DNA from: Lama glama
Taxonomy: Eukaryota
Length of the DNA stretch: 64,000 nt
NCBI GenBank assembly: GCA_028534125.1
Contig: CM052816.1
Coordinates: forward strand, 41,294,001-41,358,000
Direction of reading: 5' to 3'
Every line of letters starts with the position of its first letter. The stretch's first letter is position 1. Shown here piece by piece: positions 10,796-40,227 of this stretch. A program made the position numbers and the translations under genes. The notes under the pieces were generated by a model. That model searched no databases. It was given only the letters and a program-made list of their open reading frames with translations, and was not told where the DNA came from.

Positions 10796-11863
10796 TGGCA
10801 ATCAACAAAACAATCCACTCAATATTCTTAATCTTCTGTAAGCAACATTCCCTTTAACAATGTTTATTTGCTTAAATTTTGACTCCCTTAAATAAGACTA
10901 CAAATAAAAACCTGTCAAATTGGACAATAAATATGATCTTTTTCCCCCAAATAATAAAAGGCAACAGAGTTAATTCCAATTTCTTAAGAAAATTTTACTA
11001 TCTGCCTTACGTGTTTAAGCAGCCACATTGATTATACAATTAATCGAAGATTTAGGGGGAATTGATCAGCTGGAAAAAAACACATACACATAGATTTGTA
11101 GCCAAGCAGCTAACTCATGACTCAAAGTTGTGTTGAGTGTTAATAAAGTTCTCTCTTTCTTTTAATTGTTTCTTACTCTTACCTTGTACCCAATGGAGGG
11201 CAGACCCTGCCTATTATTAAAACTGACAGAGTTTAAGTAAACTTTTTTTATCAATATGACTTATCACTAACAAAAGTGATGACAATAATCTTTTGATTCT
11301 GATTCATGGGGTTAGAAGATATAATACTTAGACTGTAGCTGATGAATACATTTAACCTAAAAAAGACAAGATAAGCCACAAAAAAGATGGGACATATGCA
11401 GTAAAAGAATTTAGAAACATAGCAGAAATATGTCTTTGTCTTAAATTATATCCACGGAACCCTAGAGAATTTAATCTAATGCCTCTTTTCTTTAACTTTT
11501 ACGGCCCGGTACTCTTTAGCTCTTTCTCTCAAATTACCACTTTTGGCATCACTCCACAAACTGCATGTCCTCAGCTGGTAAGCCAACATTCCCTCCCACT
11601 TATACAATGAGGTACGGGGCTGATCCAGGACCCCAGTCATTGGCCAAACCTAGTTTCCATTCCCTCCCCAGGATAACACTACCAAAAGCTAAAACAGAAG
11701 TCAACCCAACCTGAATGAGAAAACAGTTATCAATACAAAATCCAAGTATTCCAATATATGTCAAGTCACTGCAATAATTTCCTAAATGTACAAAAGGGAA
11801 ACTAGTGTTAAGGACTTAAAAAAATTTTTTAAACCAAAATTGTATTCAAAATACTTGTATATG

Positions 11864-12701
11864 CACTAATTATCAGAGAAATGCAAATCAAAACTACAAT
11901 GAGGTATCACCTCACACCAGTCAGAATGGCCATCATTCAAAAGTCCACAAATGACAAATGCTGGAGAGGCTGTGGAGGAAGTGGAACACTCCTACACTGC
12001 TGGTGGGAATGCAGGTTGGTGCAGCCACTGTGGAAAACAGTATGGAGATTCCTCAAAAGACTAGGAATAGACTTACCATATGACCCAGGAATTCTGCTCC
12101 TGGGCATATATCCAGAAGGAACCCTACTTCAGGATGACACCTGCACCCCAATGTTCATAGCAGTATTATTTACAATAGCCAAGACATGGAAACAGCCTAA
12201 ATGTCCATTGACAGATGACTGGATAAAGAAGATGTGGTATAACAATGGAATACTACTCAGCCATAAAAACCGACAACATAACACCATTTGCAGCAACATG
12301 GATGTTCCTGGAGAATGTCATTCTAAGTGAAGTAAGACAGAAAGAGAAAGAAAAATACCATATGAGATCACTCATATGTGGATTCTAAAAAAAAAAATAA
12401 GAACATAAATACAAAACAGAAACAGATTCATAGACATAGAATACAAACTTATAGTTGCCAAGGGGGCGGAGGGTGGGAAGGGACAGACTGGGATTTCAAA
12501 ATGTAGAATAGATAAACAAAATTGTACTGTATAGCACAGTGAAATATATACGAGATCTTGTGGTAGCTCACAGCGAAAAAATAAATGTGGCAATAAATAT
12601 ATGTATGTTCATGTATAACTGAAAAATTGTGCTCTACACTGGGATTTGACACAACATTGTAAACTGACTATAACTCAATAAAAAAAATGTTGAAAAAAAA
12701 A
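11864..12701 (+). mobile_element. Young camelid L1, 5'-truncated (ORF2 C-terminus, 3' UTR, poly(A))
   Basis: ORF 11881-12330 is the L1 ORF2 C-terminus ([28 protein letters not shown]), frameshifted after IKKMWY; TSD acttgtatatg at 11853-11863 and 12702-12712. Confidence 0.95.
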
Positions 12702-12712
12702 ACTTGTATATG

Positions 12713-13160
12713 AATGTTCATAGTAGCACTACTCACAACAGCCAAATGTCCATCAGCAGATGAATGGATAAACAAATTATGGTATGTACGTGCAATGGAA
12801 TATTATTCAGCCATTAAAAGGAATGAAATACTATACATGTTACAACACGGATGATTCTTGAAAACATTGTGCTAAGTGAAACAAATCAGACACAAAATAT
12901 CATATATTATATGATTTCATTTTTATAAAATACCCAGAATAGGTAAATCCATGGAAACAGAAACCAAATTGGTGCCAAGGGCTGAGGGGAAAGGGAAAAA
13001 GAGAACAACTACTTAACAAGAAGGAGGTTTCATCTGGAGTGACAAAAATGTTTTGAACTAGACAGAGGTGGCAGTTGTACAGCTTTATAAATTGCCACTG
13101 AATTGTACACTTTAAAAGGGATAATTTTATGTTATGTGAATTTCATCTCAATTAAAAAAA
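12713..13160 (+). mobile_element. L1MB-type 3' end (host of the young L1)
   Basis: aatgttcatagtagcacta..gatgaatggataaacaaattatggta..tatgttatgtgaatttcatctcaatt; continues the sequence left of 11864. Confidence 0.8.
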
Positions 13161-21888: not shown

Positions 21889-22930
21889 GACCATCCTAGA
21901 AATACATTTGGTAGCCACCAGACTATTGTCAACATAATCCATGAAACTTGTTAAGATCTTTAAGGCTCATTAAGAGTTGGATGTATATAGAAATTTAAAA
22001 AGGACCAAGGACTGGGACCTCGGCCCTCTATCATTCAGAAATCAGAGACATGAAGGAAAAAATAAAACCCAGCAGAGATGACTAATAAGAAAAGGTCAGT
22101 GAGAAAGGAGAAAAACTAGGAGCAGCAGTGTCCAGGAAGCCAAGCCACAAAAAGTGCATCAAAAGAAAGAAGAAATCAGTGGTGCCAAATGCTTTTGAAG
22201 GGTCAGTAGTGTGAGGACTGAGAAGTATCCACTGGATTTAACAATATAGAAGTCAATTGGTACCTTGATAAGACATGTTTCCTTGGAGTGGTGGGAGCAA
22301 AAGACAGATTTGAATTAAGAAAAACTAAGGCAGGAAGTATTGAGAAAGTTTTCAGGAGTTTTACCACAAAGGAGGAAAACAGATGGTAGTAGAAAGGAAA
22401 GTAAGTCAGGAAGAATTTTGTTGTTGTTTTTAAGATGAGGGACGTTTCAGCATGTTGTGTACTGATGAGAAAGGTCTAATAGATGAGGAAACCTGATGAT
22501 GTAGAAAAAAGGACTATCATTATAGCAATGACCTTAGGTAATAATAAAAAGGGATGTGAGCTGGTGCAAAGCAGATGGATAATAAGAGGTAGGAAGACAG
22601 TGTATATTGATGCTAATGTTCATTGGTAGATAGAGAGAGAGAGAAATGGCAGTGGAACCTTATAGAAACTCTCCTGGTTGCTTCTAATTTCTCAGTAATA
22701 GAGAAAACAAGATTATAGCTAAGAATGAAATGTGGGTTTGAAAAAATTAGACTAAGGTATGAAACAATAGTTGAGGAGAGAGAAAGTAAAATGCACTTCA
22801 GAATGGAGTAGGACAATCTAGCAGCATTAAGGGCCAATAGAGATAAATGATCATAAATTTAAAATAAAATCATGAATTAAAAAGCATAATATGATATATG
22901 ACATATAGTCTTAAAAAGAAATAAAGTTCT

Positions 22931-23429
22931 TCCACCAACAGATGACTGGATAAAGAAGATGTGGTATATTTATACAATGGAATACTATTCAGCCATAAAA
23001 ACTGACAACATAACGCCATTTGCAGCAACATGAATGTTCCTGGAGTATGTCATTCTAAGTGAAGTAAGCCAGAAAGAGAAAGAAAAGTATCATATGAGAT
23101 GGCTCATATGCGGAATCTAAAAAAACCCACAAAAACAAAAAAACACAATACAAAACAGAAACAGACTCATAGACACAGAATACAAACTTGTGGTTGCCAG
23201 GGGGACGGGGGTTGGGAAGGGACAGACTGGGATTTCAAAATGTAGACTAGAACAAGATTGTACTGTGTCACACAGGGAAATATATACAGGATCTTGTGGT
23301 GGCTCACAGCGAAAGAGAATGTGACAATGAATGTATGTATGTTCATGTATAACTAAAAAATTGTGCTCTACACTGGAATTTGACACACCATTGTAAAATG
23401 ACTATAGCTCAATAAAAAAAATGTTAAAT
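22931..23429 (+). mobile_element. Young camelid L1 3' end
   Basis: Same subfamily as the 11864 copy; TSD aaaaagaaataaagttct (22913-22930) / aaaaagaaataaaattct (23430-23447). Confidence 0.92.
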
Positions 23430-23447
23430 AAAAAGAAATAAAATTCT

Positions 23448-37056: not shown

Positions 37057-37757
37057 GAGTTTATAAAGGAAAATATTTTTCCACCAGCCCCTATTTTTTA
37101 AGCCTTAGCATTGCAAAACAATCAATTTAGAAATTAGATCTATCAATGTTCTGCCCAAGTAATTCCTCATATATTTCATATAATTCCTCATATATCTGAT
37201 ATACTTCAAAGGTAGAAGGACAAAATTATGGAGAGACTCAAGTATACGGACAGGTAATGTATGAGCTTCCCATCTTTTATGTCCACCAGTATCTTTCTTT
37301 TCTGAAGTTCTTGGTTTCCTCTGTAACTGTCTACCTACTTTATATCACAGCCCAAAACAGTTAGATGATAAGGTGTACCAACCCCTTCCCAGACCCCACC
37401 CTCCCCTGCCACTGCCAAAAATATGCTGAAAAGGAGACTCAGCCTTTCTGCCACTTACTGGCCTATATTAGGGAATAGGGCCTAAATAAAACAGAAGCAA
37501 TGCGTTTACATACCTACCTGTCAGCTCATCCCATAAACCACCGTATCTAATCTGATGCTTATTTTGAAAATGTTAAATTTAACCCTTCTTTGATTTAACC
37601 CTTTCCATCCTGGCAAAGTTAATATGGCATTGGTAAGAGATTATCATTCCCATCTTACTTTTAAAGCACAGAAAAAAATAATTACCCAAAGGAATAAAAT
37701 AATTTTAGGAGCAGAAGAAGATTTACAAACTGTCCCTTTATCAAAAGGACAATACTG

Positions 37758-39197
37758 ACAGAAAATAAACAAGGCAACAGAGAAATTAAATACTACAATA
37801 GAAAAACTAGATTTGGTGGATATTTTCAAAGCATTACACCCCCCAAAAATAGGATATACATTCTTTTCAAGTGCACATGGAACATTTTCCAGGATCGATC
37901 ATGTACTAGGGCACAAAAGAAACCTCAACAATTTTAAGAAGATAGAAATTATCTCAAGCATCTTTACTGACCACAATGCCATGAAACTGGAAATCAACAA
38001 CAGAGAAACAAAGGAGAAAAAAAAGAAAGAATGGAGATTAAACACTATGTTATTGAAAAAACAATGGATCAATGAGGAAATCAAAACTGAAATTAAAAAA
38101 TACCTTGAGACAAATGATAATGAAAGCACAACCTCTCAAAACCTATGGGACACACCAAAGGCAGTGCTAAGAGGGAAGTTTATAGTGATACAGGCCTTCC
38201 TCAAAAAAGAAGAACAATCTCAAATAAACAAATTAACCCACCACCTGAATCAATTAGAAAAAGAAGAACAAAAAGCCCCAAAAAGCAGCAGAAGGGAGGA
38301 AATAATAAAGATCAGAGAGGAATTAAATACAATAGNNNNNNNNNNNNNNNNNNNNNNNNNNNNNNNNNNNNNNNNNNNNNNNNNNNNNNNNNNNNNNNNN
38401 NNNNNNNNNNNNNNNNNNNNNNNNNNNNNNNNNNNNNNNNNNNNNNNNNNNNNNNNNNNNNNNNNNNNNNNNNNNNNNNNNNNNNNNNNNNNNNNNNNNN
38501 NNNNNNNNNNNNNNNNNNNNNNNNNNNNNNNNNNNNNNNNNNNNNNNNNNNNNNNNNNNNNNNNNNNNNNNNNNNNNNNNNNNNNNNNNNNNNNNNNNNN
38601 NNNNNNNNNNNNNNNNNNNNNNNNNNNNNNNNNNNNNNNNNNNNNNNNNNNNNNNNNNNNNNNNNNNNNNNNNNNNNNNNNNNNNNNNNNNNNNNNNNNN
38701 NNNNNNNNNNNNNNNNNNNNNNNNNNNNNNNNNNNNNNNNNNNNNNNNNNNNNNNNNNNNNNNNNNNNNNNNNNNNNNNNNNNNNNNNNNNNNNNNNNNN
38801 NNNNNNNNNNNNNNNNNNNNNNNNNNNNNNNNNNNTCATATGTGGAATCTAAAAAACAAAAACAAAAACAAAAACAAACAAACAAACAAAAACAAAGCAT
38901 AAATACAGGACAGAAATAGACTCACAGACAGAGAAGACAGACTTGTGGTTACCAGGGGGGTGGAGGGTGGGAAGGGATAGACTGGGATTTCAAAATTGTA
39001 GAATAGATAAACAAGATTACACTGTATAGCACAGGGAAATATACACAAAATGTTAATGATAACTCACAGAAAAAAAAAATGTGACAATGAGGGTGTATAT
39101 GTCCATGAATGACTGAAAAATTGTGCTGAACACTGGAATTTGACACAACATTGTAAAATGATTATAAATCAATAAAAAATGTTTAAAAAAAAAAAAA
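37758..39197 (+). mobile_element. Young camelid L1, 5'-truncated within the ORF2 endonuclease domain
   Basis: Open frame from 37759 (QKINKATEKLNTTIEKLDLVDIF..SRIDH..TDHNAMKLEI) up to the gap; ORF2 end ICGI* at 38852; 3' UTR, AATAAA 39171-39176, A13 at 39185-39197. Confidence 0.95.
38336..38835. other. Assembly gap (500 N)
   Basis: Run of Ns inside the L1. Confidence 1.
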
Positions 39198-40027
39198 GAA
39201 AAAAGAGCAACAGAATACAGAGGTTGCTGGGAAGACGAGCCCAAGCCTCAGCCCACCGGCTGGAAGTTTCCCGCAGAGGGAAACAAGCTGCAGGTTTATG
39301 GGAGGTCCGAGGCTAGAAGACCAGGGAAGACCAGGTCCTTTGCCAAAGAAGTGACTAGGAAGCATCCTCCAGCCTCCCGGACTGTGTCGCCCACTCTCCG
39401 CCCAGGGCTGGATGCGTATGTACACCCGGGACACGGGGGCCCTGCGGACTGAGATGCCAGGAGGAGTCCACATTAAGGAAGAAGCCACCAGACCTCCGGT
39501 TCTTATTGAGTGTCTGTGGAAGCTGATTTCTGACATGTAGGGTGCCCACAGCCGACTCAAGCTCCCTGAATTCACACTAGACCCCAAGCGTAGAGGCAGA
39601 GGGCTGGGCCTCTCTGCAGGGCCACAGTCTGCAGGGCCGCTGTGAAAGCCTGATGTTGGAGGGAGTACCCCTAGAAAGAGATAAAGAACCTCAAAGATTT
39701 TCTAACTTGGAAAATGTTCATGACGTAGTAAGTGGAGAATTCAGCTCATAAAACTGGATGTATAGAGCAGCCCCACTCCTATAAATAAACATACGCATCT
39801 CCACGTGCTGTGTGTTTGTGTGTGTGTGTGTGTGTGTACGCGTGTACAGTGTGTGTGCGTGCGTGTGCGTGTGCCAACATTTAAAAGATGCTGAAGTCAC
39901 ACACACTAAAACACTAATGTTGGTTATCTTGCAGGGAGAGGAAGGGGGCTTGTAGGTGATGAATTTATTTCCTTTTCTCAAGCATCGTTTTCTACAATAA
40001 ACATATATGACTTGGAAAAAAAAAAAA
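39198..40027 (+). other. L1 3'-transduced sequence with its own poly(A) signal and tail
   Basis: Lies between the L1 poly(A) and a second poly(A) (40016-40027), with AATAAA at 39996-40001; the whole unit is bounded by TSD AAAAGGACAATACTG (37743-37757 / 40024-40038). Confidence 0.88.
39808..39873. repeat. (TG)n microsatellite, imperfect
   Basis: Visible tandem repeat inside the transduced segment. Confidence 0.9.
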
Positions 40028-40227
40028 GGACAATACTGTCTCCCTATTCACACACAGACACACCTGTGCTGAGTTACTAACAGAATGACATAAAAATATG
40101 ACTTTAAATCACCACCACCACCATCATCACCATCTAGACTAGATACTGGTCCACCATGTTTGTCTCTATCTCAGAGTAAAAATTCTTAACACCATCATAA
40201 AACGTTGTAAGTTTTTCGTAATTTCTG

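What the first reader, a model, noticed from the sequence alone, without database searches (positions are those of the whole stretch)
37743..40038. L1-mediated 3' transduction of ~810 bp of foreign DNA
Seen: the perfect 15-mer AAAAGGACAATACTG sits immediately 5' of the truncated L1 (37743-37757). It recurs not after the L1's own poly(A) (39185-39197) but about 830 bp further on (40024-40038), directly after a second AATAAA (39996) and A12 tail. The site reads TC|AAAA, an L1 endonuclease-type target. The enclosed segment is compositionally alien: I count 15 CpGs in 39230-39640, against an AT-rich, CpG-poor background. Known: read-through of the weak L1 poly(A) signal copies downstream flank to new loci. 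Inference: this tag identifies a specific, recently active camelid source L1 and has duplicated a potentially regulatory sequence here.
Basis: partly seen in the sequence, partly recalled or inferred. Interest (0 to 1): 0.8.

Follow-up and report, generated by a model that had tools for sequence, protein, structure and literature searches.

The report
Camelid LINE-1 carrying downstream flanking DNA
A shortened camelid LINE-1 copy and about 810 bases of unrelated DNA sit together inside one perfect 15-base target-site duplication; the extra DNA was likely copied from beside the parent element by read-through transcription, an ordinary and well-known event, here likely a few million years old.

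Summary
The anatomy is confirmed. A 15/15 target-site duplication (37743-37757, 40024-40038; the only two copies in the window) encloses a 5'-truncated camelid L1 starting at ORF2 codon 158, its own poly(A) signal and tail, an 810-base non-L1 tag, a second AATAAA 14 bases before a second tail. No duplication follows the L1's own tail, whereas two other L1s in the window have theirs there. Best reading: a partnered L1 3' transduction (0.9). Three corrections. (1) The 500-N gap is likely a scaffolding placeholder; a collinear L1 needs about 2.75 kb, so the insert is likely about 4.5 kb. (2) 'Recently active' is doubtful: 5 of 144 ORF2 residues carry rare changes at conserved positions (about 1.5% DNA drift, roughly 3-7 Myr), the tail is short, and four organism labels hold the tag within 1%. 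(3) The tag is GC- and CpG-richer than anything else in the window but is not a CpG island (o/e at most 0.55); nothing shows a regulatory role. Source locus and empty allele were not observed. Transductions accompany about 25% of human L1 insertions and 322 are catalogued in dogs, so this is a new member of a known kind.

The parts
37743..37757 (+). 5' copy of the 15-bp target-site duplication; bottom-strand nick reads TTTT/GA, an L1-endonuclease-type site (consensus TTTT/AA recalled). Its last G may be a 1-nt microhomology with the L1 (inferred from the Arg codon expected before residue 158).
37758..38335 (+). 5'-truncated L1 ORF2, residues 158-349 (end of endonuclease domain and linker), frame open for 192 codons; homology starts exactly at the duplication boundary
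38336..38835 (.). 500-N assembly gap, the only gap in the window; likely a fixed scaffolding placeholder hiding about 2.75 kb of ORF2
38836..39184 (+). last 4 codons and stop of ORF2 (38838-38852), then the L1 3' UTR with the element's own AATAAA (39171-39176); shares a deletion of about 23 bases with two other L1s of the window (youngest lineage seen here), 83-84% identical to the three closest
39185..39204 (+). internal tail A13-G-A6: the parent element's own poly(A), probably running into the parent's A-rich target-site copy (inferred)
39206..40015 (+). 810-base non-L1 tag, GC 0.51, 24 CpG, o/e 0.46; GC-rich 5' half, TG microsatellite at 39809-39873, bypassed AATAAA at 39784; no other copy in the window, no Pfam or Rfam match
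39996..40001 (+). AATAAA 14 bases before the terminal tail; likely the signal that ended the read-through transcript
   Evidence: 10-30 base spacing from PMC13009371 passages
40016..40027 (+). terminal A12 (8 A net of the duplication)
40024..40038 (+). 3' copy of the target-site duplication, 15 of 15 identical

Best explanation
A 5'-truncated camelid L1, its tail, an 810-base non-L1 tag and a second tail lie inside one 15-base duplication, likely because a parent L1 elsewhere was transcribed past its own poly(A) signal and the longer RNA was inserted here in one step (partnered 3' transduction). Inferred steps: polymerase read through AATAAA 39171 and 39784 and was polyadenylated after AATAAA 39996; ORF2p nicked the bottom strand at TTTT/GA, primed on the new tail, copied tag, old tail, 3' UTR and most of ORF2 (about 4.5 kb if the gap hides collinear L1), stopped at codon 158, and the staggered second cut left the 15-base duplication. 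The event is likely a few million years old and shared by several camelid species rather than segregating (about 0.65-0.7), and the tag is likely an inert passenger from a GC-richer region.
For: Duplication 15/15, unique in window, p 2e-7 to 4e-4. L1 homology begins exactly at its edge: the residues before it read KGQY* against DRSSR in relatives. No duplication after the L1's own tail (best 10 of 15, A-rich), while two other L1s of the window carry theirs directly behind the tail (11853/12702, 11 nt; 22912/23429, 14 nt; 2 clear cases of 7 elements examined). Second AATAAA 14 bases before the second tail, within the 10-30 range given in PMC13009371. Tag is compositionally foreign and has no second copy in the window. 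Both gap edges lie in the same-strand L1, in the right order. Age: 10 of 144 residues differ from the closest camelid ORF2; at 5 of the 10 the relative has the residue found in 79-87% of 259 other homologues and the window a residue found in 1-7%; simulation puts 5 changes at about 1.5% DNA divergence, 3.0 Myr at the camel rate in PMC8605555 or 6.8 Myr at a general mammalian rate (recalled). 17 of 24 listed runs, 4 organism labels, 8 studies hold 0.75-0.94 of the tag's 84 words, i.e. at most 0.9% divergence; a lone source copy 2 x 1.5% away would give 0.39.
Against: The defining test, a second locus with the tag behind an L1, was not made: no genome is held for the window and no reads or contigs were laid on the locus; searches of metagenome, viral, plasmid and prokaryote collections found no copy of the tag. 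The two halves are joined only across a gap. The run search cannot tell source from insertion and lists best holders first. The age rests on 3 camelid proteins of uncertain species; differences could be subfamily changes, changes already in the parent, or errors near a contig end, and an open 192-codon frame plus a perfect duplication also fit a young copy (P = 0.64 for a perfect pair at 1.5%).
Confidence: 0.9

Rival explanations
1. Two nested events: the L1 inserted first with the 15-base duplication, and later a truncated polyadenylated RNA (orphan transduction or retrocopy fragment) inserted into the L1's then longer poly(A) tail, leaving an all-A duplication that cannot be recognised.
For: Gives the same order of parts; A tails are endonuclease targets (recalled); the internal tail is interrupted, A13-G-A6.
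Against: Needs a second rare hit in one short tail with a duplication made only of A; no part of the non-A duplication appears behind the L1 tail; transductions are common (about 25% of L1 insertions, PMC13009371); the tag shows no coding match.
Confidence: 0.05
2. The tag is native to this locus (its end resembling an old L1M-type 3' end with its own tail), the gap joins unrelated contigs or two L1 copies, and the 15-mer match is chance.
For: The gap is a likely Hi-C placeholder with no sequence evidence of joining; the tag's last 315 bases resemble an ancient L1M-type 3' end (recalled, not confirmed: searches found only microsatellite matches).
Against: Chance of the match at these junctions 2e-7 to 4e-4, 1 of 29 A-runs; tag GC and CpG exceed every background window; gap edges are collinear parts of one L1.
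Confidence: 0.02
3. Same transduction, but the element really is short: it lost about 2.2 kb of ORF2 internally (splicing, deletion, or a hidden inversion) and the gap is near its stated size.
For: Stated gap 500 against about 2750 bases needed.
Against: Exactly 500 N is the fixed spacer of the 3D-DNA pipeline (PMC8926247 passages); contigs commonly break inside L1 ORF2 (recalled). This variant leaves the transduction reading unchanged.
Confidence: 0.03

Closest known systems
Partnered L1 3' transduction (human L1; Moran 1999, Goodier 2000, Pickeral 2000 as cited in PMC13103737; PMC13009371; PMC9311842)
   Same: Truncated L1, internal tail, unique tag, downstream AATAAA 10-30 bases before a second tail, one flanking duplication; tag length (810) is within the range of modal human tags (37-818 bases in Table 1 passage of PMC13009371).
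   Different: Camelid host; source locus not identified; likely older and likely fixed rather than somatic or polymorphic.
Canine LINE-1 3' transductions (322 loci, PMC13103737)
   Same: Germline transductions in a non-primate, non-rodent mammal, found from assemblies and used to trace source elements.
   Different: Those are dimorphic loci with mapped tags; here there is one locus, an unmapped tag, and no evidence of dimorphism.
Camelid L1 ORF2 cluster P0001/P0121/P0122 (one member annotated as Camelus bactrianus lipase member J isoform X1, XP_074230101.1)
   Same: 93%, 91% and 93% identical over 144 residues.
   Different: The three relatives are 98-100% identical to each other; the window copy differs at 10 of 144 residues from P0001, 5 of them at conserved positions.

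Membership tests
L1 partnered 3' transduction | L1 body in sense orientation, 5' end truncated at the insertion boundary | tested here: met
   ORF2 residue 158 begins at 37759, directly after the duplication
L1 partnered 3' transduction | L1's own 3' end, poly(A) signal and tail lie inside the insertion | tested here: met
   ORF2 stop 38852, 3' UTR aligns with 8 other L1 ends, AATAAA 39171, A13 39185-39197
L1 partnered 3' transduction | Non-L1 sequence follows the L1 tail | tested here: met
   39206-40015 has no match to the window's L1s or to ORF2 proteins
L1 partnered 3' transduction | Downstream poly(A) signal 10-30 bases before a second tail | tested here: met
   AATAAA 39996-40001, 14 bases, A12 at 40016 (spacing rule)
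L1 partnered 3' transduction | One target-site duplication encloses L1 plus tag, none behind the L1 tail | tested here: met
   15/15 at 37743 and 40024; best match behind L1 tail 10/15, across an unsequenced gap
L1 partnered 3' transduction | Endonuclease-type target site | tested here: met
   Sequence reads TTTT/GA on the bottom strand; consensus TTTT/AA is recalled
L1 partnered 3' transduction | Tag maps to a second locus directly behind a source L1 or its empty site | not testable with these tools
   No genome held for the window; no copy found in the collections searched
L1 partnered 3' transduction | Empty allele with one copy of the duplication in other individuals or outgroups | not tested
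   No reads or contigs were laid on the locus; the one junction pattern search (viral contigs) found nothing and is uninformative
CpG island | At least 200 bases with GC above 0.5 and CpG observed/expected at least 0.6 (criterion recalled) | tested here: not met
   Best sub-windows of 200-500 bases with GC at least 0.5 reach o/e 0.49-0.55
Young, polymorphic L1 insertion | Near identity to the active subfamily and a long pure tail | tested here: inconclusive
   Open frame and perfect duplication, but 10 of 144 residues differ from the closest relative and the net tail is 8 A; no subfamily consensus of the window's own species was available
Ancient L1M-type 3' end within the tag | Alignment of 39700-40015 to an L1M consensus | tested here: inconclusive
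   Resemblance recalled; no repeat library on hand; nhmmer and BLAST against window and fetched loci gave only microsatellite or non-significant matches

The most novel reading that the evidence does not exclude
The tag marks a highly active camelid source L1 with a family of sibling transductions (some predicted to end near 39800-39815, behind the bypassed AATAAA), the insertion still segregates in domestic camelids, and its GC/CpG-rich half carries a working enhancer or promoter copied into an AT-rich region; it would be the first traced L1 source lineage in camelids.
Probability: 0.08. Interest if true: 0.5.

Novelty: new member of a known kind. Interest (0 to 1): 0.2.

Why it matters
Modestly. 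It is a clean textbook example of L1 3' transduction in a family where my searches found no described case (54 papers with LINE-1, transduction and camel, 20 listed, the one camelid TE survey mentions transduction once and generically; 0 papers with camelid and L1 transduction). The tag is a barcode for finding the parent element and siblings, and presence or absence across camelids would be a near homoplasy-free phylogenetic marker. The duplication matching across the gap also independently supports the scaffold join and suggests the real gap is about 2.75 kb. It reveals no new mechanism.

Tried and rejected
Own-genome search: no genome is held for this window. Spurious frame of the tag against 5.8 billion proteins: 0 of 767 candidates. 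Same frame against metagenome contigs: 1 locus of 597 stretches, 39% identity, chance-level, rejected; the scan covered only 22 of 64 parts. Right-junction pattern in viral contigs: 0. Tag against plasmids: no match. L1 ORF2 scans for mammalian contaminant contigs: none in viral contigs, 14 loci in prokaryote genomes; the tag's 3' half matched only through its TG repeat in 3 of 10 of those genomes and not at all in the 21 stored loci by blastn. Rfam: 0 matches in the window. Pfam: 0 of 293 stop-to-stop frames of 55 residues or more outside the L1 5' piece, so no host gene context was found; short exons would be missed. The promoter scan is for bacterial signals and says nothing here. Earlier findings of this scan: none returned. 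Second ORF2 search at fragment lengths gave no further camelid-like hit, best 78% among 120 listed of 994. A paper on tail shortening with age was not found, so that rule is recalled. Rejected: an alternative duplication directly behind the L1 tail (10 of 15, mostly A); CpG island status; template-switch chimera (non-L1 part lies 3' of the L1 tail, not 5'; recalled rule).

Full report
Observation. Between the copies lie, in order: L1 ORF2 in an open frame of 192 codons (37759-38334), a run of exactly 500 N (38336-38835, the only gap), the last four ORF2 codons and stop (38838-38852), an L1 3' UTR with AATAAA at 39171, a tail A13-G-A6 (39185-39204), 810 bases without L1 similarity, AATAAA at 39996 and, 14 bases later, A12 whose last four A belong to the duplication. 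The 11 non-A bases would match at a fixed register with p = 2.3e-7, or 4e-4 with generous junction slack; of 29 A-runs in the window only this one has such an upstream copy. The CpG count of 15 is right and exceeds every background window of that size (mean 2.4, maximum 9).

What the L1 is. The ORF2 piece is 93% identical over 144 residues to an unnamed NCBI protein whose cluster includes a Camelus bactrianus gene model (91%); all other listed hits reach at most 78%. So the host is a camelid; the species was not determined. Homology starts at ORF2 residue 158, exactly at the duplication's edge, with at most one base of microhomology (inferred). The left piece ends at residue 349 and the right piece starts four codons before the stop, so a collinear element needs about 2750-2770 bases in the gap. 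A 500-N spacer is what the 3D-DNA Hi-C pipeline inserts between contigs (PMC8926247, two passages seen); that this assembly was so made is my inference. The insertion is therefore likely about 4.5 kb, and the duplication matching across the gap is independent support for the join.

Why transduction. No duplication follows the L1's own tail (best 10 of 15, mostly A). As an internal control I examined seven other L1 ends in the window: two have a clear duplication directly before the 5' end and directly behind the tail (11853/12702 and 22912/23429), the other five gave only short or misplaced matches. The tag has no second copy in the window, is foreign in composition (GC 0.51 against a background maximum of 0.47 for 810-base windows) and ends in a poly(A) signal at the canonical distance. 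This is the described anatomy of a partnered 3' transduction (PMC13009371 and PMC9311842, passages seen). Shown by the sequence: the order of parts, both tails, the duplication, the truncation point. Inferred: read-through at a parent locus, use of AATAAA 39996, single-step insertion. A third AATAAA at 39784, followed 20 bases later by a TG-rich tract, was also passed, which predicts shorter sibling tags. Not shown: the parent locus and the empty allele. No genome is held for this window, no reads or contigs were laid on the locus, and the collections searched hold no copy of the tag. The main surviving rival is a later insertion of a polyadenylated fragment into the L1 tail (0.05).

Age. For youth: open frame, perfect duplication, and a 3' UTR that shares a deletion with the most derived L1s of the window. 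Against: the three camelid relatives are 98-100% identical to each other but the window copy differs at 10 of 144 residues from the closest; at 5 of these the relative has the residue seen in 79-87% of 259 non-camelid-cluster homologues (of 267 fetched) and the window a residue seen in 1-7%; the other 5 are not polarisable. Neutral simulation gives about 4.7 changes at 1.5% and 9.4 at 3% DNA divergence, that is 3.0-6.0 Myr at the dromedary rate quoted in PMC8605555 (passages seen) or 6.8-13.6 Myr at a general mammalian rate (recalled). A perfect duplication (P = 0.64) and no stop (P about 0.76 for 144 codons) are still likely at 1.5%. The net terminal tail is 8 A; that tails shorten with age is recalled (search found no fitting paper). 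Of 24 runs listed, 17 DNA-type or unlabelled runs from four organism labels and eight studies hold 0.75-0.94 of the tag's 84 sampled words, equal to 0.2-0.9% divergence; if only a source copy 3% away existed the share would be near 0.39. Together these favour an insertion shared by several camelid species, at about 0.65-0.7. Caveats: the list shows best holders first, one may be the assembled sample, the search cannot separate source from copy, and the amino-acid differences could be subfamily changes or predate insertion.

Regulatory content. CpG observed/expected is 0.37 in the GC-rich half and 0.46 overall, and no sub-window of 200-500 bases with GC at least 0.5 passes 0.55: not a CpG island, simply DNA from a GC-richer region. 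No Rfam family, no Pfam family in 293 frames and no protein relative of the tag's longest frame were found, so neither a host gene nor a captured exon is evident; short exons would be missed. The tag's last 315 bases resemble an ancient L1M-type 3' end from memory, in which case an old repeat supplied the poly(A) signal; I could not confirm this.

Comparison and verdict. About 25% of human L1 insertions carry transductions (PMC13009371) and 322 loci are catalogued in dogs (PMC13103737, passages seen). Searches for a camelid case found none (two searches listed nothing relevant by title or abstract), within a library that lacks most subscription journals; no supplements were read, and repeat tables there could bear on camelid L1 subfamilies and ages. 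It works like, and meets every locally testable feature of, a partnered 3' transduction; two defining features remain unobserved. New member of a known kind, confidence 0.9, interest 0.2.

Noticed in passing
window 38336-38835: Exactly 500 N where about 2.75 kb of L1 ORF2 is expected; the duplication matching across it supports the scaffold join and shows the stated gap size is likely a placeholder.
   Followed up: partly
window 11853-12712 and 12675-12925: A truncated L1 with an 11-base duplication (11853/12702); further ORF2 C-terminal matches follow right behind its tail, suggesting it landed in or beside an older L1.
   Followed up: partly
window 22912-23442: Truncated L1 with a 14-base A-rich duplication (22912/23429); same 3' UTR lineage as the focal element.
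   Followed up: partly
window 7143-60907 (nine L1 3' ends aligned): The L1 3' UTRs fall into at least three successive groups; a deletion of about 23 bases marks the focal element and those at 12360 and 23090.
   Followed up: partly
P0121 (XP_074230101.1): A Camelus bactrianus 'lipase member J isoform X1' model begins with L1 ORF2 sequence in normal ORF2 numbering; likely an annotation artefact or an L1-gene chimeric transcript.
   Followed up: no
L002-L012, L015; P0248: Short contigs with mammalian L1 ORF2 in bacterial genome assemblies and a Campylobacter 'hypothetical protein' matching ORF2: likely host or laboratory contamination.
   Followed up: no
window 39700-40015: The tag's 3' part looks, from memory, like a decayed ancient L1M-type 3' end that may have supplied the final poly(A) signal; not confirmed.
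   Followed up: partly
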